This document shows, piece after piece, positions 17,601 through 41,975 of a stretch of DNA of 54,224 nucleotides. Below the pieces are notes generated by a model that searched no databases, was not told where the DNA came from, and saw only the letters and a program-made list of their open reading frames with translations. How positions within the stretch are numbered: the stretch's first letter is position 1; the number at the start of each line of letters is the position of its first letter. Origin of the DNA: Chromera velia (lineage: Eukaryota); NCBI GenBank assembly GCA_018398765.1, contig JAHBMJ010000189.1:1-54224 (forward strand), written 5' to 3'. The translations under genes were made by a program, and so were the position numbers.

Positions 17601-20446
17601 CTCTTATTATACTCATAAAGATTTTCAATAGTGAGACGTACGTTTTGGATCAGCTTTTCGTGATGACAATTTAGGTATAGAGGTTTTAATGATGATGATG
17701 ATGATGATGATGATTGAGTGATATGCTTTGGGGTGCCTCACAAAAAAACTACTAGAAAAAACACAACATGTATACATATACGGTGTTATCATCTCTTCTT
17801 GCATATCGCGTAAGTATACAGCCCATTATTGTTCAAGTACCTGGTATTTGTGTAAAATAACTTCAATATAGTATATGTATATAATGGTACTCAAATTGTT
17901 TGTATGTCATAACTGCATATTTAAATTGTGAAGAAATTTATCAAAAATAAAATTTAATTTAAGAATCAATTATAACGGAATCTTTATTTTTAACAAATCT
18001 AGAAACAGATTGCTGCTGCTATAACTGGTCTACTACTAGTACCCGTGAAGGTTTTCTGATAACATTGCTTCAATTTGTAACAATTAAGTTAGAGGTCTAA
18101 GATGAATTTTCCAGTTTACTACATCTTTGATTTGATTAGCTTAGATTTCTTTATAGAATTAAATACATTGACTTAAATCAGAAAAAATTAGAGTATTTAA
18201 CTAGTCTAGTAACTAGTTGAACAATAGATCACTTAAATTCAAAATCTTCGTTAAAATTATGCTTTAATATATCACTATAGTCTATAGGGTTATCAAGATG
18301 GTTTGAAGTGTTTTACTCCATGCTACAAATTATGTGACAAATAATCAAACAAACGAAAGTTACTAGGAAATTCAAGAAATATATACAAGCCAGTGCCAGT
18401 GCACGCATCATATTTGCATTGAAAAATACCGTGACTTGTCACGTGTCAAGTGCTGATTCACTGTTGAAAAGGTCTTCATGGCGGATATCTCTGGAGTAAG
18501 GCCGTTTTATAAAAGATGATGAGGCTACTGAAATTACCTCGATTCACTATGGGGGAAAGGGGGGGAAGAAGAAAGATCCTAACTTCGATTCCCAGGTGGC
18601 ATTTCCATTTCAGGCTGCAATGATCGAAATCGACGGTCTCGACTGATTGTTGCATGCACAGAGTTTGAATTCAGAAGTCGATAAATGGCTCAGGAAGCGG
18701 CCGAATTCTAGGAGATCATGCAACTTGAGAAAGAAAGAGCAGTAGAGGACCAGTCGATCCCAGTTGATCACCAAGTGTCTCGTCTCTCTCAACCAGACCC
18801 TCTCAGCAGTGCAGGGAAGCAAAACACTCTAAACATTTGCTCCTTGTCGATCGAGCAGATAGTTTACCTTCGGTCTTCTCTCAGACTCCGTTTCTTCTTA
18901 TCGTGGCTGAAGTCTTCTGAGAGTCCTTTCATACCAGAGTGGAAAGTGACTCAATCGCTCGTTTCTATGTCTCAAAACTTGTCGTCGTCTCTCTGTGTCT
19001 TCGTCTGCATTCGCCTATTTATCCGGGAACACAGCTGTCCCGCATACAAACAGACAGACAGACTAGATAGTTTCCTCTCTCTTCCGTTTATTGACTCATT
19101 CACGAAAATCCCCTTCCTTTTCGGGGTCTCGCAACACACAGATAGATAGATAGACAGACGGAGCTAATGACTGGCAACCAAAAACGCTGGAAGGAACAGA
19201 GAAGGTACACCGAAATTTCGAGGACTGTGTGTGTGTGAGAGAGAGAGAGAGAGAGGGAGCGAGAGAGAGAGAAAACAAAAATGAGAGAAAGGTGGAATTA
19301 CTGGACAACGGCCCAGAAGCCGCTGGAAAGAAAGGATACAAAAAGCGCATGAGACTTCGTTGCACTGTAAATTTCGTGGAATCACTCGGCCGCTCGACTG
19401 GACTCTCCGGCTTCGAGTGGGAAGAATTCAAGAACTTCATTTGAATTTCCTATCATGGAAATCAAATGTACTTCTTTACTCCTCCTCTCTGACAAACAAC
19501 AGCCAGAAAGAAAAGGACATGAACACAGACTGAAAGAAAAACAAAAAGAAAGGCAGAAAGACAGAAAGAGAGACAAAATGAGCAAAAGCAGATTCAAGGG
19601 CAGGCCACCGACCGGCAGTGTTGTTACATTTCACCACACGCATACAGGGAAGGGAAAATCACTGAAGACGCGAATGAATGATCGAGGGAATCATCCGCTA
19701 AGACCCTGATGGGTTTAGGATGAAGCTGGGCGGAATGAAAGAAAAGACCCCCGCGGGACTCAAAGATTCACGACCGTCTTACGAGAGATGTATGAAAATG
19801 ATTTTCCCGGACTGAGTTTTCTCTTTCTCTCTGTCTCTCCGACTGATTTCCATTCATTTGCTCGTTCTCATCGCACCTCTTCGACCCTCCCACCTCCTCC
19901 GCAAATCCCCGTCCAATTCTGTCTTAGATCGACAGAACCATTTAAGGACTCAAAAGAAGAACAAGAAGAAGAGAGATCTACGATTTGATCAAAGAAAGAG
20001 CGAGGCGGACTGCCTGGACTGTCTTCACAAAGTGATTTATTCAGTCCGGAAACCTTCTTCAGGGCACTGCACACTCAAACCGCCGTGGCCGCAGAGCCAA
20101 AATCTCCTCCATGCTCCGTCTGTCCCCCATGCAATTCATACAAGCGCCTCAGGCTACCTTTCCAAAATACCAGGTACTCCTCCCGAGGCACTTGCACAGT
20201 TAGGAGCCGCTTGCACAAGTGGCAGGGGAGCCTCCGAGGTCGAATCTTCTTCAGGTCGCATGGGAGCTTCGATTTCCTGCGGGCAGGCAGGCAGACAGAC
20301 AGACAGGCAGGCATACTTCGAGGGACAGAAAGCGACTGTAAGACTTCCAACCCATGATCTCAAGGGGGGGACAAACGCGAAAGGATGAGAGAAAAAAGTA
20401 AACGCACAGGCAAGCAGGGCAGGATGAAAACGAAAAGCAAACAAGA

Positions 20447-23248
20447 TCACCAGACTTGAGGATAGCGAGAGAGCTTCATGTGAACATCTATGTATCTGAT
20501 GTATGCGTCTATCTCTAGATCTAAATCTGCGTATTGATACACCTCCATACCTACCAGTAGAGGATCTGGAGACTTCTTGGTGCGCCGCTCGGTGTATGCC
20601 CTGATCGCTGCGTCGATGACCATCATGTCAACACTCTCCTCTGGCTTTGTTTCGTGAAGCTGTTGCGCCTCTGGCTTCTGTGTGCTCCTGCTTTTCTCTG
20701 CAAGGCCATCAGGGTCCGACATCTGGTGTACGTCTGGGACGTCAGCTACTCCCTTCATATCGACGCTTGGAGGTGAGTGGAGTTCCTGGAGCTCTTTCAG
20801 GGCTTTGTTACCAGCCTGAACAACGACGGTTGACATTCTTCTTCGGCCCGTAACAATTTCGGGTTGCAGTTCCTCTGGAGGTTCTTCCCCCTTGTCGATG
20901 CAGGCAGTGATCTTCTTCTTCTCCTGCTGGAGCGTCGCTGTCCACTTCGAGCGAATGTAGTAAACATACCTGCACACGGGGGGGGGGGAAACAGAGCAAT
21001 GAATAAATAAAGTCAATTGAAAACGGAAACCTGTGATTCAGAAGCAAAAGGAGAACATGGAGAGGCGAACAAGACGGAAAAACACGGTGAGAAAGACCCG
21101 ATGAAAAAAATGACAAAAGGGGGGAGCTAGAAGGAAAGGAAGGAAGCAGGGAAGAGAGAGATAAAGAAGGACAGAAAGAAAGAAAGAAAGAAAGAAAGAA
21201 GGAAGGACGGACAATCCGACTCACGCTGAGAAAGCCAATTTGGATATGAGATCCATTGTTGACAACACGATGACCTCCGCTTGCGGCGGAATGACCCTGG
21301 CGCCCATCGGCCCGATTATCCACGTAATTGGGAACGCCACCCACGTGACCACCACACACACGGCAATGTATCGGAGATTCGATTTTCCTGCATGTAACCA
21401 AAGATCGATGAAATGAAAGAGAAAAGGAATTCATCGCACACTTCCTGCCTAGCTGAGACTAATGCGTATATATCTCGTGATGTCCGAGAAAGACAAAATT
21501 GAATGCTTGCATCCGTCTGAAGGGTCAACCGGCACGTTGCCAAACGAATGCATGTACCCTCCTTGTCGTACTTCATGCGAACCACCCGATGCACCCACTC
21601 ATGAATACCGGAAGGAGTCGAATACATCTGAACAGATACCGCCTTCTCGTTGGTTCCTTCTTGATTTGCTGGCTGAGAAGCTTTTTCACAGGTTCTGTTG
21701 CGTCTCTCGAATGTCTGAATTCAGTCAGCATCGATGGCGACTTGAAGATTGATTCCCCTCCACAGAAGTAAAGAAGCAGCTGCAACAACTGCTGCATATC
21801 GTAAACATGGAATACCCTGCTCACCCAAGAACAGAGCAGTCCCCCGACAGACAATACAGACAGACAGACCTTTAAACAAGTTGTCATGATTCTCGGAAGT
21901 CTCCCTGACAGCCCAGTCGAGGTTGACAACAAGGAGCACAAAGAAGGACCCACCGAGGCCAAATGCCATCATACGGTAAGAGAACTCAGGCGTCGCGTTG
22001 GCCCACAAACCGAGAGCCAGCATGAGGAATGTGCAAAGCACGAGTTCGACCTGCCTCTGCTTCTTGCTCCGTGCGAGCAGAGAGACCTGCCAGCTAAAGA
22101 GCGGACAGGTGATGGCAAATTGGACAAACCTGCAGACAAAAGAAATCCAGGTACCATGCATGATGCGAAGCACACGAGTGCAGGTTCTTGTTGCGACCCG
22201 AAGACCCTCTTACGGGTTTATATTATTACGCGTATTTCAGCGTGGCGTGCAATTTGTCGACCGATCATTCCCTCGACAGACACGGAGGTCGAGGGCCACC
22301 ACAGATGGACAGCTACAAATTTAGGGGCTTGGTCGGATCGAACAGCGCCATGCGGACTACGAAAGGGACACCCGAAATGAAAGGGAGCGACACTCTGAAG
22401 AGACACGAAGCAGTGAAAGAAACCAACACCCACATGCAACCACGGCACACGCGTCCTGTGTTGTCTCAGCGATGCCGGACTGCACTTCGACGTCACTTGT
22501 ATTAATATATGCAAGTGGTGTGGTACCCGACTTGTGAAACAACCGAACAAGTTTGTGCGAAATCATGTGCGATACGTAACTCCTTGCTGGACAAAATACA
22601 TGGTTTATTACGACATATAGGGTGCTAGATTCCCATGTAGAGGCTCCCATAGACTCTGTGCTGAGTCGTTGCAGAGACGACACCGGAACTCGAAATTGAC
22701 TGACCTTGCTATGTCGTTGCGCGTGCAATCCTCAAAGATGACATCGTCGACTTGCGAGAGCATGATGAGGTTGTGGCACCCGGAGAAGAGCATGATGTAC
22801 CCGTTCAGAGAGGTACACAGGGAGAAGACCGCCAGGCTCTCGTCCTCCACGTGGGGGTCAGGAAAACGTGTCCAGTAGAACAAACCAACCTGCATGCATG
22901 AATTCAGCCCAAAATCGGGTAGGCCAAGCAACACATGCAAACACATTCAGGGAAGACGAAGTGACGTCGCATTTTCACGAATCCTGACGCAGATTATCTG
23001 CATGCGCAGATACAGATTTAAAACTACATGCAGGCGCTCTGGAAACACATGGGGTATATAGGAAAGCTGACCGTCATACAGATCGACGCCTGGGCGATTC
23101 GAATGTAAAATGTGGATTCGCTCATTTCTTCGATGTTTCCGTCCGCTATGCACTCAGCCAGGTAGCTACGTGTTCCTTCTGCAAATGCTGCGAGAAGAGA
23201 AACCGCGGCCAGCAGCTGGGCAAGACAGGGCATCCTGTGCGGAACCAT
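20447..23248 (-). CDS. Microbial (type-1) rhodopsin with N-terminal hydrophobic leader and long C-terminal tail; exons 23248-23072, 22889-22705, 22129-21870, 21387-21225, 20969-20447
   Basis: All four introns are GT-AG and phase-compatible. The spliced protein has helix C DIARFVQFAITCPLFSWQV, helix D LVLCTFLMLALGLWA, helix E MAFGLGGSFFVLLVV, helix F IAVCVVVTWVAFPITWIIGPMG and helix G IVLSTMDLISKLAFSAYVY (DxxxK, Lys codon 21239-21241). The last exon may splice further. Confidence 0.9.
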
Positions 23249-23906
23249 TTTGCAAATTCAAGCCAGAAAGACGTCAGGGGTCAGCTTTTCATTTGCAACG
23301 TTCGATTCTCTGCACCACCCGACAAACGCGTGTTGCTCCAACAACCAGTAACTGAGTACAAGAGGTGCAGTGGAAAGTCCAAGGGACGGACCTCTTGGAC
23401 TGGGGGCTTGCAGCTAGCTTAGGGGCTGCCACAGAAGGCACGTCTTTGCGGAGACAGTCACGGCCATTACATGCTTATCTGAAGCTCTGCATGCATGAAT
23501 CCTGCTGTGTTTTTTTAGACACAAATTATTAATAATAAGTGCATGCCCCCACCGCGTCACCGCGCGTTGCATAGCGCGGACGGAACCCCAATTTAATGGG
23601 TATATAGCGCGGACGGAGGGTGAACCGACGGAATTTGGACATGCAGCTAGTCTGAGCATGCATGTCTGAGCTAGATGATCCGATGTCCGTCAAAATCCGT
23701 CTAAGTATCAATACTGGTGACCTCCTCAGTGCATAGGGCGAAAATCTGTTGCACGGAAGAGTCACTTTGTGGCCGAGGTTTTTTTCATCAGCACATCCTG
23801 CCTGTTCTCTATTTAAGCGCCTGTAGACGCACGCCGTCTCCTTCCTCCAGACAGTCGACCTTCCTCTTTTTTGCCCTTCGCCCTTCTCGTGCCACCGTGA
23901 ACCTAC

Positions 23907-37509: not shown

Positions 37510-40500
37510 TCACTCATCGGGGATGTGTTGGCTAAAGAATGGGAGAAGAAACGTGGGGGCCATGCTTTTAGTCAAAGGGTCAGCGCGGTTGAGGTCGGTT
37601 GAAATATAACACAGATGGATACGGCATGCATCCAGAGTGTCGCGCAACGCGAGGGTAGACACAGACCACTCCAGGAGCTTTGCTTGGAGAGATTCGACAA
37701 CCTTGGTAATAGACCGCTCATGTGGATGTGGATAGTCTGCGGCAACTAAGTGCAGCACGTCTTGTACGTCAGTGTGCACTGTGCCGGACACTCCCTCTCC
37801 CCAGACGACCCGCAGGCAGGGAAGAACAAACTCCATAAAATCTACCAGGTCGTGCGAGGTGTAGTACCCCTGGTGTACAGCTCAGTACGAGCACTGCTTT
37901 GAGCAACGCGGGGCTGTCGAAAGGACCTCCAATGAATCAGGGAGTTTCTGATCGCAATCAACCACCCGGTGTGCGGGTGGGCACACTCCGCAGTTCCGAG
38001 TGCCGCATCCCCCCACCCAGTCACGTCCAACGGCTTTGAACGCTTGGAGATGTCATCTCTGCAAATGTAGAGGGTGCGGTGTTTGGTTACGGCTGCATAG
38101 CGGACAGCGCCATAGAGATACTAGTGGAGATACAAGAGGCTGCGCTCGGTTGGACAGGCAACGGAGCGACTGAGTTCGTTGCAGGCCTCAGCAAGGTCCG
38201 GTCGGGTGTCTCGAGCGACCCAAGCAAGGCCGCCCAGGAGAGAGCGGAATGAGCGGGCCTGGGAAGCAGGCAAAGCGGGGGAGTCGTCTAGACGGTCGCG
38301 AGAATCGGGGGGAAGCGGAGTGTTTAGGATGGGTCCGGGCGGGACGGTCTGCAAGAGAGACTGCACATTCTTTGCCTGACTCAAACGGATCTCGTCTTCT
38401 CGGAGTTCAATGTCTACCCCAGCCCACCGGGCGCAGCCGTTTGTATCTGCTTTCACTTTAGTGATGGTGAAAGGTCCTTTGGATGCAATCTCGTCGACAA
38501 GCTCGGACGGAGATGCCCCAATGCCAATCACGGCCAGGTCGTCGACGAAAGTCGCGCACAGGCCAAGCAGTCGAGAGGACTCTACTCCTGGCTGGCCGGA
38601 CCATTTCCACCACAAGCCCGGAACCCCGCTCTTCATCCACCCTGCCTCGAGGAGCACACGGTCTCTATGGTGGTCAAAGATGAAGCCGCTGTCCTTGAGG
38701 CCGTAGACAGCTTTCAAGAGGAGCCAGAGGTGAGTGCGGTACTCGGGATGGTCAGGAGGGGGCCGCACATACGTGGGCTCTCCACTTGGGGAGTCAGGGC
38801 GGGGAGCTGTGAGGTAGGCATTTTCGATGTCGGCAAGGAGGAAAGAAGTGAGGGGGTTGAATTCGAGAAAGGTGAAAGCAATGCACAGCGCAATGCGGAG
38901 ACCCCATTGGGCTATATTGGGCTGCTGTGACGTTGGAAACGGGAATGTCCGACCGGCTGTCGAAGCGGGGGGAGCCGTTAGCACAGAGATGGGACTTGAA
39001 AATGCGCTCATGTTCTGACACGCGCTTCAATGTGTTCCTCCAGATCAAGGGGATGGCGGTGCGACGGGCTCAGGGAGGAACTGCATCGATTGGAATGCTC
39101 TGCTTCACACCATAAGTCTCAAACTTCTCTAACTCCTTCTCCCTCCCCGCTTGGTGCTATGCCTGTTCCTCAGGGTCCTTCAGGTCATGAACGCGGACCG
39201 GGATGTGTGTAGTGGCGTTGCTGCAGGGATTGGAGGCGGTTGCAGAGGCAGCAAAGGCAGCAGGGCAAACGGAGAGGTCAGGAGAGGGGCGGTACTCTGA
39301 TTCAGCAGTGGTTACGGAGAGGGCAGCAAGCTCGGCAAGGATTGGGATGCTCCAGAGGGAGTCGGGGGCAGGAGTGCGGGCGACAGAGAATGTGGAGGCA
39401 TGCATAGAGACGGTAGAATGGGGGAGTCGGCCCTCAGGGGAAAGGGAGATGCGACGCTCTCGAATCTTATCTAAGGCAATGATACAGATGTCGGGGTTGT
39501 GGGAAGGGGGCTGCTGGTGCTGGTATCGGACACGGTGCCCCGTGGGATGGCGCCACATGGGAGCAAACATGCAGTTCTTCAGGGTACCATGCCTGAGAGA
39601 GCCCTATGCATGGACTTCAAGGAGTTCTGTCTTCTTCTCAATCCCAACTATCTTCCCCAGGAAGCGCTTCTACGTCTCGGGGACCTCTCAGATGATCATC
39701 TCTCCCTGATGAAAATCGTGAACAGAAGGCAACTCACCGAGGGTGGGCTCAGACGGTGCCGAAGGGATAGGGGATGAAGCATGGGGTGGTGAAGGCGGGG
39801 AGGGCTGACTATCTGAAGGAGAGCTGGAGGGGGGGTGCAGCGGATTCAAAGGGTGCGGTAGGGAAGAACGGGAGGCGGGAGGGGAGGTCTCTGAGGAGGA
39901 ACGAAGACACCGAATGTGTGCAAATGTGGAGCGCTGGGTGCGAGACAGCTGAATGGTGTATACATGCCCCCCGTGTCTCTGTTTGATGATTATATCTTCC
40001 CATAAATCCTCTCTCTTGTCCCTCTACGTTTCTGGATGATTGAACAACACCCGATCCCCCGCAGAAAAAGACTTAGTGCGCAAAGAAGGGTCATTCTTTA
40101 ACTCTTCTGCTGAAAGGAGGTCAAGCATTGCATGAATGCTCGGGAAAACAACGGGCTGACCATGTCGGCGTTCCGCAGGAGAAATGTCCCCTCGACCCGG
40201 ACGGCGGTTGTAGCGTTCGACAGCCAGTTGAACCACGTCAGGCCATGACTCAACGGGCAGTCCGTTGTCGTGGACGATCGCCCGCAGAATTACATCGACC
40301 TCCCTGTGGGCGCACTCGAGGCGCCCGAGGGTCCGGTGCCAACCGACAGGGGCAAGCGTGTGCCCGACTTCTATCTGAGACAAGAAGTCTGCCCAGTCCC
40401 CCTGAAATTCCTTTCCCAAATCCGTGATGACCTCATTGGGATAGTATCCCGCTGAGGTCGCTGCCCACCCCTTGTAGGCTTCACGAAGGGTGGCAGCACA

Positions 40501-41975
40501 CCTGTCTGACACAGCAATATAGTGCAGGTCGTCTTCCCACTCGTCTTTCAGAGTGAGGTAATAGCGTGCGTTAGGGCGGTCGGCCCTTCCGTATACTAGG
40601 TCAGCTTGCAGGCGCTGCCTGGGACCTGTGACCTTCAAGGGAGATGTGCAACCGTCAGAAACATTGCGAGGTTTTACGCATGCGCAGGTCCCCCCCACAG
40701 CTCGTCGTGAAATACCGTAAGGGGGGGCTTTGGGGTGCCCTTTCAGTGCCCGACGGAGGGAAATCCAGGTCTTCGTGACGCGTGCATGCCCAATCTCAAC
40801 GTGGTGGGCACAAATCAATTCATCGACCATCTCAAAACTGATGGTCTCCAACTCGGAGGCTGGAGGGGAGCGGCTGCCCTTTCGGGGGCAGCGCTTACGC
40901 AGACGGCACTTTCGCTTCTTTTTTTCAGCAGTCACACCCTTGATGTGCAACACGGGGCACGCTGCAGCTTCAGTCGTAGAAGCTGTATGGCAGCATGAGC
41001 ACGGCGGACCCGGTCCTGTAAGGAGACGGAGGCTCACGACCATCGTCAAGGGTGGTTGGCTGGAGACGACCGACTGAGCAGTCGGGGAGGGCCCGGCAGT
41101 CTGCGGCTGGGGTGGGTCTACATTCGGTTCGGCATGACTCGAGTCGGATGGGCAGGGAAGAGGTGTATAGCATCCATTGTCCTCTGAGGGCACAACAGAG
41201 GATGAAGTTGGCGCTGAATATGAAGACGCCATGGTGAGGGTACGGGGCTCTGTAGGTTTGGAGGCGGAGACGGTGTCATTCGTGCGAAGCTCTGGGGGCT
41301 GAGACAACGCAAGGAAGAACAAGTCGTTTGGGGAGCGTTGGAAGTGCAGAGAGGGGCGATGGGGAAAGGAAAGAATGCCCGTGGCATACTCAAATGACGC
41401 CTTGAGGGGAATCAATGCCGCATTTCCGATCAAGACCGGAGTGATCGCGTTGGTTTCCAGGATGTCTGCCTCGAGAGAGAGATCACCGGAGAGGCTTCGA
41501 CATGGGATAATGGCCTTTAGCTCCACAGGCATCTGACCGTTGGCAGTCAAGGAGGTGGAAGGCCGGGGCAAGCGGCGCGCTCGGTCCATGTGAGCTCGTC
41601 TTCCTCCTTCCGCTTGCGCAGCCACCCACGAGTGCAGCAGGTGCGGCTGGCTCCAATGTCCAGGATTGCAAAGAATCCATGAAAGGCGAAGGAGAGGAGT
41701 ACGGAATTCTGTGCAGCACGCAAAGCTGCCAAAGCACTCTCCACAGCTGTGCGGACATCTGCAGGGAGACCGTCCAAGACAGTGGAGATGCTGGAGGGGT
41801 CAGAGCAAGCATTCGGGGTGACCTCCTCAGGGTTTTGCAAAACAAGCAACGAGGAAAATGAGGAAGAGCAACCGGAGACGGCGGTCTCGGTGCTGTTGCG
41901 CAAGCAGATTTTTGGATAGACTTTGCCTGAAGCAATCGTAGCATCAAGAATTTTGTTAAGTGAGGCAACAGACAC
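37510..41975 (-). pseudogene. Frameshifted copia gag-pol
   Basis: Protease AILDIGAS; integrase HHVEIGH, LQADL, VITDLGKEF, GRLECAHRE; RT LADIENAYL, KAVYGLKDSG, FVDDL; RNase H WGDAA, SSARTEL, NRADPLTK. Split over several frames. Confidence 0.9.

What the first reader, a model, noticed from the sequence alone, without database searches (positions are those of the whole stretch)
21225..22129. Non-canonical rhodopsin active site: Q-T-Q motif, TCP helix C, a single carboxylate counterion
Aligned by eye to bacteriorhodopsin (RYADWLFTTPLLLLD), RFVQFAITCPLFSWQ gives D85>Q, T89=T, D96>Q, W86>F and T90>C. Helix D puts Thr at D115, helix F puts Phe at Y185, and D212 and K216 are kept. Established: outward proton pumps need the D85 acceptor; Cys at T90 is typical of channel- and enzyme-type rhodopsins; a non-carboxylic D85 position occurs in anion-transporting ones. 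Inference: not a proton pump; possibly a light-gated channel or sensory pigment with a shifted spectrum.
Basis: partly seen in the sequence, partly recalled or inferred. Interest (0 to 1): 0.8.

Follow-up and report, generated by a model that had tools for sequence, protein, structure and literature searches.

The report
Chromera QTQ-motif channelrhodopsin-family gene
This gene of the alga Chromera velia encodes a light-sensing rhodopsin that lacks the usual proton-acceptor aspartate and is likely a light-gated anion channel like its tested Vitrella relative VbACR2; the odd motif was already in print, so it is a new member of a known family.

Summary
Window 21225-22129 is exons 3 and 4, plus the intron between them, of a six-exon minus-strand gene: Chromera velia Cvel_15662 (UniProt A0A0G4F8P7). 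It encodes a type-1 rhodopsin. Profile alignments to solved rhodopsins put Gln at BR D85, Thr at T89, Cys at T90, Gln at D96, Thr at D115 and Phe at Y185, and keep D212 and K216. Helix C holds no acidic residue, so no register shift could supply one.

The pattern is conserved. Eleven C. velia paralogues and Vitrella VbACR2 carry it. VbACR2 (CEM28120) is a patch-clamped, 440-nm anion channel with Gln128 and sole Asp257. It aligns to this protein without a gap over 234 residues (33% identity, E 2e-56). The nearest other family, the dinoflagellate-type TCP rhodopsins, shows the reverse pattern: Glu at 85 and Asn at 212.

Contigs from four sequencing runs join the exons at GT-AG borders.

Most likely function: a light-gated anion channel, predicted to absorb in the blue, possibly serving zoospore phototaxis. 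This is inferred, not measured.

The QTQ motif of this Chromera clade (2022) and the Gln/Asp arrangement of VbACR2 (2023) are already published. It is therefore a new member of a known kind, of moderate to low interest.

The parts
23072..23248 (-). Exon 1 coding part. The ATG is at 23246-23248. It encodes a signal-peptide-like N-terminus, a short extracellular segment with a conserved Cys, and the start of helix A. The UniProt model starts 41 codons further in.
   Evidence: ORF and translation. There is an in-frame TGA just upstream. Contigs run unbroken from 23070 to 23400. The N-terminus aligns to those of the paralogues.
22890..23071 (-). Intron 1 (GT..AG).
   Evidence: The joint is seen in 4 of 4 runs laid. 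Splice dinucleotides were checked.
22705..22889 (-). Exon 2: end of helix A, helix B, and the B-C loop. Helix B has no internal carboxylate; S54 sits at the GtACR1 E68 position. The exon ends with AG, the first two bases of the Arg codon (BR R82).
   Evidence: This exon has no rhodopsin hit in PDB by sequence.
22130..22704 (-). Intron 2 (GT..AG).
   Evidence: The joint is seen in 2 of 4 runs laid. Splice dinucleotides were checked.
21870..22129 (-). Exon 3: helices C, D and E. Codons (window positions, with the BR equivalent): Gln 22120-22122 (D85), Thr 22108-22110 (T89), Cys 22105-22107 (T90), Gln 22087-22089 (D96), Thr 22030-22032 (D115), Gly 21952-21954 (S141).
   Evidence: Pfam Bac_rhodopsin 2.1e-7. 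PDB alignments. Codon map.
21388..21869 (-). Intron 3 (GT..AG).
   Evidence: The joint is seen in 4 of 4 runs laid. Splice dinucleotides were checked.
21225..21387 (-). Exon 4: helices F and G. Codons (window positions, with the BR equivalent): Trp 21341-21343 (W182), Phe 21332-21334 (Y185), Glu 21275-21277 (E204), Asp 21251-21253 (D212), Ser 21242-21244 (A215), Lys 21239-21241 (K216, retinal attachment).
   Evidence: Pfam 7.2e-10. Ungapped phmmer alignment to BR 174-219. Codon map.
20970..21224 (-). Intron 4 (GT..AG). It holds an (AGAA)n microsatellite at 21129-21204.
   Evidence: Consecutive pieces of one contig in 4 of 4 runs (table 8). The joint table skipped this repeat. Tandem repeat.
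20555..20969 (-). Exon 5: end of helix G and the cytoplasmic tail. The tail has no recognised domain and is predicted to be disordered.
20277..20554 (-). Intron 5 (GT..AG).
   Evidence: This is the only GT-AG junction that reproduces P0001. Contig pieces flank it.
20154..20276 (-). Exon 6: end of the tail and the stop codon (20154-20156).

Best explanation
Cvel_15662 encodes a type-1 rhodopsin of the chromerid/colpodellid channelrhodopsin family and most likely works as a light-gated, passively conducting anion channel.

Shown:
- It is a six-exon gene. Its spliced form is present in sequencing-run contigs.
- The protein has a seven-helix Bac_rhodopsin fold with the retinal lysine (K216 in BR numbering and in P0001 numbering; K257 of the 440-aa protein).
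- Asp at the D212 position is the only carboxylate among the three counterion-candidate positions: BR D85 is Gln, the GtACR1 E68 position is Ser, and D212 is Asp.
- The D96 donor position is Gln.
- The closest tested relative is the anion channel VbACR2, which has the same arrangement.

Inferred:
- With no acceptor or donor carboxylate, no outward proton relay can run.
- Retinal isomerisation would instead open a passive anion path, as in VbACR2.
- In the zoospore, anion efflux would depolarise the membrane and could feed the negative phototaxis reported for C. velia.
- Gly at the S141 position predicts blue-shifted absorption.
- The paralogues differ at that position (G, T or S). They may therefore cover different colours.
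For: Identity:
- Exon 3 is 100% identical to P0001 (UniRef A0A0G4F8P7, C. velia), which is Cvel_15662.
- The spliced model reproduces P0001 exactly.
- Pfam Bac_rhodopsin scores 5.4e-22.

Structure:
- The AF2 model built on 86 sequences has pLDDT 87-98 over residues 1-250.
- Foldseek matches rhodopsins at target-normalised TM-score (TMt) 0.8-0.86.

Residue map.

Family:
- An exhaustive HMMER search gave 385 hits at E<=1e-3.
- After the C. velia paralogues, the best named hit is P0012 (8.8e-71), which is CEM28120.1, i.e. VbACR2.
- BLASTP of P0001 against VbACR2 gives 33% identity, 62% positives, 234 residues, 0 gaps, E 2e-56. Q83, T87, C88, Q94, D212 and K216 lie opposite Q128, T132, C133, Q139, D257 and K261.
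- In the careful tree (62 rows, 225 columns) the chromerid/colpodellid clade has support 80/85 and this gene's subfamily 99/97.

Conservation. Identity to P0001 among the first seven paralogues found is 35-76% in the seven-helix part and 14-24% in the tail.

Function of VbACR2, from Kojima 2023, PMC10147648 (sections 6 and 8 read):
- Photocurrents reverse with voltage.
- The Erev shift is 65.6 mV against a 71.2 mV Cl- Nernst value.
- The maximum is at 440 nm.
- Gln128 and Asp257 are noted, and G184 (BR S141) is linked to the blue shift.

General rule: all ACRs known then had a non-carboxylate residue at D85, and TCP is conserved in most ChRs (PMC8818676, passages).

Behaviour: C. velia zoospores show negative phototaxis to all tested light except red (PMC13403131, passages).

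Splicing: contigs in 4 runs of one study join the exons at GT-AG borders.
Against: - No current or spectrum has been measured for this protein or for any member of its subfamily.
- Identity to VbACR2 is only 33%. VbACR2 sits in the other branch of the clade, whose members share a post-helix-G segment that this gene lacks.
- Clade support is moderate (80/85). An AU test does not reject a tree that puts this subfamily with the Glu-85/Asn-212 family instead (p 0.295).
- A neutral residue at D85 does not by itself predict anion selectivity (PMC8818676). ChvCCR1, from the same alga, has a non-carboxylate there and conducts Na+.
- Relatives often give tiny or no currents. The dinoflagellate TCP rhodopsins gave about 20 pA, and CEL94649 gave 59 pA.
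- By sequence and by fold, the best-matching solved structures are pumps and sensors, not channelrhodopsins.
- Helices A-B match no solved rhodopsin by sequence.
Confidence: 0.5

Rival explanations
1. It is a light-gated channel, but cation- or proton-selective rather than anion-selective.
For: It has the same fold and the TCP motif. ChvCCR1 (Cvel_28437), from the same organism, has a non-carboxylate residue at D85 yet conducts Na+ (Govorunova 2022 preprint, section 8 read). The review states that the D85 residue alone does not set selectivity.
Against: ChvCCR1 belongs to another family. That family has Gly instead of the TCP Cys and did not appear among this gene's close hits. The closest tested relative, VbACR2, is anion-selective. 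Helix B has no internal Glu.
Confidence: 0.15
2. It is a non-electrogenic sensory rhodopsin. It would signal through its cytoplasmic face, either the strongly conserved E-F loop or the tail, to a partner that steers zoospore behaviour.
For: - The E-F loop motif (E156, E/D162, L164, G167, S169, R172) is nearly invariant in the 12 clade rows and in most of the 66 rows of the Glu-85/Asn-212 family.
- SRII is among the best sequence and fold matches.
- Bulzu 2022 argues for a sensory role for neighbouring dinoflagellate clades.
- Many relatives give little or no current.
Against: VbACR2 has the same loop and is a channel giving nA-scale currents. The tail has no recognisable signalling domain. No partner is known.
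Confidence: 0.17
3. It is a light-driven inward anion pump resembling the bacterial NTQ chloride pumps or halorhodopsin. Chloride would bind near the Schiff base between Gln-85, Thr-89 and Arg-82.
For: QTQ differs from NTQ only by Asn to Gln. (The NTQ motif is recalled, not taken from any call.) R82, T89 and D212 are kept. A cyanobacterial chloride-pump mutant (6wp8) has the highest target-normalised TM-score in the fold list, 0.86. Kojima 2023 raises bound chloride as a possible counterion.
Against: VbACR2, with the same motif, shows voltage-reversing passive currents. Cys at T90 and Ser at A215 are channelrhodopsin-like. The family does not group with the BR-like (Asp-85/Asp-212) pump rows in the tree.
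Confidence: 0.06
4. It is an outward proton pump that uses an unrecognised acceptor.
For: R82, E204 and D212 of the extracellular network are kept.
Against: There is no carboxylate at D85 or D96 and none anywhere in helix C. This holds for all 12 clade rows.
Confidence: 0.01

Closest known systems
VbACR2 (CEM28120), the anion channelrhodopsin of Vitrella brassicaformis ('Colpodellida ChRs', Kojima et al. 2023)
   Same: - Gap-free homology across all seven helices: 33% identity, E 2e-56.
- Gln at D85, Thr at T89, Cys at T90 and Gln at D96.
- Asp at D212 is the only carboxylate among the three counterion candidates.
- Gly at the S141 position.
- Phe at Y185.
- Both come from chromerid algae.
   Different: - Identity is only 33%.
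- VbACR2 has Lys at R82, Tyr at W86, Ala at G122 and Ala at A215.
- VbACR2 carries a conserved post-helix-G segment that this gene's subfamily lacks.
- This gene is functionally untested.
Dinoflagellate-type TCP channelrhodopsins (deltaSmChR1, mgdChR1; Govorunova et al. 2021)
   Same: This is the nearest other family in the exhaustive search, from 2.6e-32. It shares the TCP motif, Phe at Y185, the helix-B end motif, the E-F loop motif and S/A-K in helix G. By eye, P0016 closely resembles mgdChR17 as printed in the paper's supplement.
   Different: The carboxylate pattern is reversed: Glu at 85 in 66 of 66 rows and Asn at 212 in 66 of 66. Many members have long extensions. The reported currents were about 20 pA, and the selectivity is unknown.
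Cryptophyte ACRs (GtACR1, GtACR2)
   Same: Neutral residue at D85, the TCP motif, and Asp at D212.
   Different: The cryptophyte ACRs have Ser rather than Gln at D85, and Glu68 in helix B where this protein has Ser. They are not close in sequence: none appeared among the named close hits.
ChvCCR1 and its paralogues (Cvel_28437, 21397, 30056) of C. velia
   Same: Same organism. Non-carboxylate residue at D85.
   Different: They cluster with the kalium channelrhodopsins and have Gly in place of the TCP Cys. ChvCCR1 conducts Na+. Their gene identifiers differ from the 11 in this family.
Bacteriorhodopsin and sensory rhodopsin II (haloarchaeal type)
   Same: They are among the best sequence and fold matches among solved structures. 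Loop lengths are identical from helix F to helix G. R82, W182, P186, W189, E204, D212 and K216 are kept.
   Different: D85 is Gln, D96 is Gln, T90 is Cys, D115 is Thr, Y185 is Phe and W86 is Phe. Helices A-B are unrelated in sequence. The gene has a eukaryotic signal peptide and a long tail.

Membership tests
Type-1 (microbial) rhodopsin, Pfam PF01036 | Profile match above Pfam's gathering score | tested here: met
   P0001 scores 78.8 bits against a cutoff of 24.6. Exons 3 and 4 pass separately with 31.1 and 39.2 bits.
Type-1 (microbial) rhodopsin, Pfam PF01036 | Schiff-base lysine in helix G and the seven-helix fold | tested here: met
   K216 aligns to BR K216 without gaps. The AF2 model has pLDDT 87-98 in the helices. 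Foldseek gives target-normalised TM-scores of 0.8-0.86 to rhodopsins.
Outward proton pumps (BR type, DTD/DTE) | Carboxylate proton acceptor at D85 | tested here: not met
   Gln. Helix C holds no acidic residue.
Outward proton pumps (BR type, DTD/DTE) | Carboxylate proton donor at D96 | tested here: not met
   Gln in 12 of 12 clade rows.
Chromerid/colpodellid channelrhodopsins (VbACR2 family) | Full-length homology of the seven-helix domain to VbACR2 | tested here: met
   Family profile against P0012: 8.8e-71. P0012 is CEM28120.1. BLASTP: 33% identity, 0 gaps, E 2e-56.
Chromerid/colpodellid channelrhodopsins (VbACR2 family) | One clade with VbACR2 in a tree | tested here: inconclusive
   The clade is present in the best tree with support 80/85. 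An alternative that excludes VbACR2's branch is not rejected (AU p 0.295).
Chromerid/colpodellid channelrhodopsins (VbACR2 family) | Gln at D85 and Asp at D212 as the sole carboxylate among the three counterion candidates | tested here: met
   Q83, S54 and D212 lie opposite VbACR2 Q128, T99 and D257. Positions are as named in Kojima 2023 section 8.
Chromerid/colpodellid channelrhodopsins (VbACR2 family) | Light-gated anion conductance | not testable with these tools
   This needs patch clamp. It has been measured only for VbACR2.
Channelrhodopsins in general | Thr-Cys-Pro motif in helix C | tested here: met
   T87-C88-P89. Cys is present in 12 of 12 clade rows. The motif is described as conserved in most ChRs.
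Channelrhodopsins in general | Conserved glutamates of helix B (ChR2 E82, E90) | tested here: inconclusive
   There is no Glu inside helix B, and Ser sits at the E90/GtACR1-E68 position. A conserved Asp (D34, 11 of 12 rows) at the cytoplasmic start of helix B may stand for E82, but no alignment to a ChR was computed.
Dinoflagellate TCP channelrhodopsins | Asn (or other non-Asp) at D212 together with Glu at D85 | tested here: not met
   This gene has Asp at 212 and Gln at 85. The other family has N in 66 of 66 rows and E in 66 of 66. The feature is as stated in Govorunova 2021.
Chloride pumps (NTQ, halorhodopsin TSA/TSD) | Asn or Thr at D85 with Thr/Ser at T89 | tested here: inconclusive
   The D85 position is Gln, which is neither Asn nor Thr. 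Thr at T89 and Gln at D96 match NTQ. The pump motifs are recalled, not taken from a call. No pump sequence was compared directly.
Heliorhodopsins | SxxxK in helix G and inverted topology | tested here: not met
   The helix G motif is DxxSK. The N-terminal signal-peptide-like segment points to a type-1 orientation. Bulzu 2022 also places the clade among type-1 rhodopsins.
Enzyme rhodopsins | Fused cyclase, phosphodiesterase or kinase domain | tested here: not met
   Only Bac_rhodopsin is found in 5 of 5 family proteins scanned. The exon 5 tail has no family match. Tail pLDDT is mostly under 50.

The most novel reading that the evidence does not exclude
The seven-member Chromera subfamily that contains this gene lacks VbACR2's post-helix-G segment and varies at the S141/T142 colour-tuning positions. 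It may not be a set of simple anion channels. It may be a spectrally diversified set of zoospore photoreceptors with a different output: a non-electrogenic sensor acting through the invariant E-F loop, or a channel of another selectivity.

Together with the sister family (Glu-85/Asn-212), it would show that alveolate TCP rhodopsins run on a single counterion carboxylate that has swapped helices during evolution.
Probability: 0.2. Interest if true: 0.6.

Novelty: new member of a known kind. Interest (0 to 1): 0.3.

Why it matters
If this protein conducts anions like VbACR2, it and its ten C. velia paralogues would be a ready natural series of Gln-85 / sole-Asp-212 channelrhodopsins. They differ at a known colour-tuning site. 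That makes them useful for learning how a single carboxylate stabilises the Schiff base, and as candidate blue-shifted optogenetic silencers.

Tried and rejected
Genome access and earlier notes
- No whole genome is held for this window.
- Earlier scan notes returned nothing.

Searches that found only C. velia paralogues or nothing
- Three word-indexed protein searches found only C. velia paralogues: 5 of 147, 8 of 7998 and 7 of 455 candidates. They missed VbACR2. Only the exhaustive search found it.
- The search for related loci found no relative in viral contigs or in metagenome contigs.
- A back-translated helix-C pattern had 0 matches in metagenome contigs.

Structure
- The first AF2 model, from 8 sequences, was poor (mean pLDDT 54.5). 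Its fold hits were superseded by the second model.
- VIA-align searches were never accepted. No residue-level structural superposition was obtained, and solved channelrhodopsin structures were not ranked against BR by Z-score.

Weak or empty comparisons
- NCBIfam gave nothing relevant.
- ESM Atlas nearest clusters were chlorophyte ChR 0.93, giant-virus opsin 0.92 and ChRmine family 0.92. These are leads only.
- Exon 2 matched no solved rhodopsin.

Sequencing runs
- No RNA holder is listed. The four runs that hold the locus are labelled RNA by guess only.

Sequences not compared
- Channelrhodopsin sequences printed in a paper's supplement were only read by eye. They are not stored session proteins, so they were not entered into any tool. 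No computed alignment to GtACR1, ChR2 or deltaSmChR1 exists here.

Literature gaps
- Figure S1 of Kojima 2023 is an image and could not be read.
- No paper in the library mentions six of the family's gene identifiers, this gene's among them. 'QTQ' with 'rhodopsin' occurs in one paper only.

Rejected readings
- Enzyme rhodopsin: no fused domain.
- Heliorhodopsin: DxxSK motif and type-1 orientation.
- Pseudogene: the frame is intact, the spliced form is present and the residues are conserved.
- Tandem duplicate in the window: tblastn finds one copy.
Full report
WHAT IS THERE

The window is eukaryotic, with fragmented ORFs and GT-AG introns. The motif lies on the minus strand. The exons are:
- exon 1: 23248-23072
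- exon 2: 22889-22705
- exon 3: 22129-21870
- exon 4: 21387-21225
- exon 5: 20969-20555
- exon 6: 20276-20154

All introns are GT..AG.

Exon 3 is 100% identical to UniRef A0A0G4F8P7 of Chromera velia CCMP2878 (P0001, 399 aa). This is gene Cvel_15662, annotated 'uncharacterized protein'. The spliced model reproduces P0001 letter for letter.

An in-frame ATG 41 codons upstream (23248) adds a signal-peptide-like segment that aligns with the N-termini of the paralogues. The true product is therefore probably 440 aa.

Contigs in four sequencing runs of one study join the exons at these borders. The run kind 'RNA' is a guess by the tool, not on record.
- Intron 1 joint: seen in 4 of 4 runs.
- Intron 2 joint: seen in 2 of 4 runs.
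- Intron 3 joint: seen in 4 of 4 runs.
- Introns 4 and 5: bridged as consecutive pieces of single contigs.

This is what spliced mRNA gives.

The contigs differ from the window at 10 coding positions, 4 synonymous and 6 not. None is at a motif residue.

CHECK OF THE OBSERVATION

Pfam Bac_rhodopsin matches both exons above threshold and matches P0001 at 5.4e-22.

A profile of the family against all PDB sequences gives Rubrobacter rhodopsin 6kfq (3.1e-15), H. marismortui BR-I (3.4e-14) and SRII as best hits. The printed alignments place Gln opposite D85, Thr opposite T89, Cys opposite T90, Gln opposite D96, Thr opposite D115, Phe opposite Y185, Asp opposite D212 and Lys opposite K216.

Exon 4 aligns to BR 174-219 without a gap. 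By coincidence, P0001 numbering in helices F-G equals BR numbering.

Helix C has no Asp or Glu at all between D77 and E108.

An AF2 model built on 86 sequences is confident across the seven helices (pLDDT 87-98). It matches solved rhodopsins at target-normalised TM-scores of 0.8-0.86. I could not obtain a residue-level superposition because the VIA-align service was never free.

THE FAMILY

Word-indexed searches found only C. velia paralogues. An exhaustive HMMER search of 1.84 billion representatives with the family profile found 385 proteins at E<=1e-3, 94 at E<=1e-10 and 10 at E<=1e-30.

Look-ups of 20 of these hits gave the following.
- C. velia has 11 members. Eight were found earlier. 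The three new ones are Cvel_747, Cvel_21152 and the partial Cvel_8989.
- P0012 (8.8e-71) is CEM28120.1 of Vitrella brassicaformis, that is, VbACR2.
- P0013 is from the colpodellid Alphamonas edax.

P0001 and VbACR2 align over 234 residues with no gap (33% identity, 62% positives, E 2e-56). Q83, T87, C88, Q94, D212 and K216 lie opposite Q128, T132, C133, Q139, D257 and K261. Kojima's third counterion candidate is VbACR2 position 99, which corresponds to GtACR1 E68. It corresponds to Ser54 here.

Counts in the 12-row clade:
- Gln-85: 11 of 12
- Gln-96: 12 of 12
- Cys-90: 12 of 12
- Thr-115: 12 of 12
- Phe-185: 12 of 12
- Asp-212: 10 of 12. One row is a truncated model and Alphamonas has Asn.

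The next family in the hit list (from 2.6e-32) also has TCP and Phe-185, but it has Glu at 85 in 66 of 66 rows and Asn at 212 in 66 of 66. That is the signature Govorunova et al. 2021 give for dinoflagellate channelrhodopsins and their marine metagenomic homologues (PMC8406140, passages). By eye, P0016 closely resembles mgdChR17 as printed in that paper's supplement. This comparison was not computed.

TREES

A quick tree used the 133 rows with at least 135 aligned positions.

A careful tree used 62 of those 133 rows, chosen by hand (225 columns). The choice was:
- kept: all clade members;
- thinned: the Glu/Asn family, to 28 of its 66 rows, and the outgroups;
- dropped: two long-branch rows, P0143 and P0149, which the quick tree had placed inside the clade.

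Support in the careful tree, given as ultrafast bootstrap / SH-aLRT:
- this gene's subfamily (P0001-P0007): 99/97
- VbACR2 + Alphamonas: 99/95
- the whole chromerid/colpodellid clade: 80/85
- the Glu/Asn family: 100/94

The TCP families are separated from the BR-like and chlorophyte-ChR rows at 83/88.

An AU test does not reject grouping this subfamily with the Glu/Asn families instead of with VbACR2's branch (p 0.295). The sister relation to VbACR2 is favoured but not proven.

VbACR2, Cvel_747, Cvel_21152 and Cvel_26554 share a conserved segment after helix G that this gene's subfamily lacks.

WHAT IT MOST LIKELY DOES

Shown:
- a retinal-type seven-helix protein with the lysine;
- no acceptor or donor carboxylate;
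- Asp-212 as the single carboxylate among the three counterion candidates;
- the TCP motif and Ser before the lysine;
- no fused domain;
- a conserved seven-helix part (35-76% identity to P0001 among the first seven paralogues found) against a fast-evolving tail (14-24%).

Established by others, for the closest tested relative. VbACR2 gives voltage-reversing photocurrents. Its reversal potential shifts 65.6 mV on chloride substitution, against a Nernst value of 71.2 mV. It absorbs at about 440 nm. The authors name Gln128 as unique among ACRs, Asp257 as the putative counterion, bound chloride as a possible alternative counterion, and Gly184 (BR S141) as one of two residues, with Ala165 (BR G122), that probably cause the blue shift (PMC10147648, sections 6 and 8 read).

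Inferred: this protein is a light-gated anion channel. Gly139 at the S141 position predicts blue-shifted absorption. The paralogues carry G, T or S there, which suggests colour diversification.

C. velia zoospores show negative phototaxis to all tested light except red (PMC13403131, passages). That behaviour is consistent with rhodopsin-type photoreceptors, but no link to this gene has been shown.

Against this reading:
- identity to VbACR2 is only 33%, and it sits in a different subfamily;
- clade support is moderate;
- a neutral D85 residue does not fix selectivity (PMC8818676; ChvCCR1);
- relatives often give tiny currents;
- the best-matching solved structures are pumps and sensors.

I put the anion channel at 0.5, another selectivity at 0.15, a non-electrogenic sensor at 0.17, an anion pump at 0.06 and a proton pump at 0.01.

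WHAT IS KNOWN, AND NOVELTY

Bulzu et al. [quoted passage not shown] It is the only paper in the library that holds both 'QTQ' and 'rhodopsin'.

Kojima et al. 2023 describe the Gln / sole-Asp arrangement and its channel function in Vitrella.

Govorunova et al. 2022 tested three other C. velia rhodopsins (Cvel_28437, 21397, 30056). These have Gly instead of the TCP Cys and belong to another family.

No paper in the library names Cvel_15662 or five of its paralogues.

The gene is therefore an untested new member of a known, recently characterised family. The odd active site is real and conserved but not new.
- a corrected N-terminus;
- confirmed splicing;
- the count of 11 paralogues;
- the explicit gap-free link of the Chromera QTQ subfamily to VbACR2;
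- the quantified reciprocal Glu-85/Asn-212 versus Gln-85/Asp-212 pattern.

Noticed in passing
window 23072-23248 (-): The public model (A0A0G4F8P7 / Cvel_15662) starts 41 codons too late. An upstream in-frame ATG at 23248 adds a signal-peptide-like segment and a conserved Cys-containing stretch that aligns with the paralogues. Contigs cover this region.
   Followed up: yes
window 20633, 20647, 20884, 21287, 21339, 21352, 21950, 22042, 22776, 23147: Contigs of runs X1-X4 differ from the window at 10 coding positions (4 synonymous, 6 not). One change is Gly to Ala at the BR T142-equivalent retinal-pocket position. This could be an allele, a strain difference or a very recent copy.
   Followed up: partly
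P0008 (Cvel_26554), alignments A2 and A3: This paralogue's gene model lacks the end of helix F and all of helix G, including the lysine, yet it continues with the conserved post-helix-G segment. It probably has a missed exon, or it is a broken copy.
   Followed up: no
P0001 residues 156-172; window about 21870-21903 and 21371-21387 (-), spanning intron 3: A cytoplasmic E-F loop motif (E..S....E.L..G.S..R) is nearly invariant in the 12 chromerid/colpodellid rows and in most of the 66 rows of the Glu-85/Asn-212 family. This is unusually strong conservation for a loop, and its role is unknown.
   Followed up: partly
hit list; table: The sister family keeps its single carboxylate on helix C (Glu-85 with Asn-212). 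This clade keeps it on helix G (Gln-85 with Asp-212). The pattern is reciprocal. The Alphamonas protein P0013 has neither (Val-85, Asn-212).
   Followed up: partly
P0001 residues 139-140 (window 21949-21954) and the paralogues: The positions equivalent to BR S141/T142 near the retinal ring vary among paralogues: G, T or S at the first and G, L, F, A or T at the second. The rest of the pocket is nearly fixed. This suggests spectral tuning.
   Followed up: partly
cytoplasmic tails of P0001-P0007 (window about 20800-20840 for this gene): A short basic stretch, then Ser, then a VTG-like motif, recurs in the otherwise unconserved tails. It may be a phosphorylation or sorting site.
   Followed up: no
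window 38121-41625 (-): Two long ORFs have weak matches, below Pfam's gathering thresholds, to integrase core (rve, 4.4e-4) and copia-type reverse transcriptase (RVT_2, 4.1e-5). They are probably a retrotransposon remnant.
   Followed up: no
window 21129-21204: An (AGAA)n microsatellite lies inside intron 4. It read as SFFLSFFL in one frame and caused the read-laying tool to skip this stretch.
   Followed up: yes
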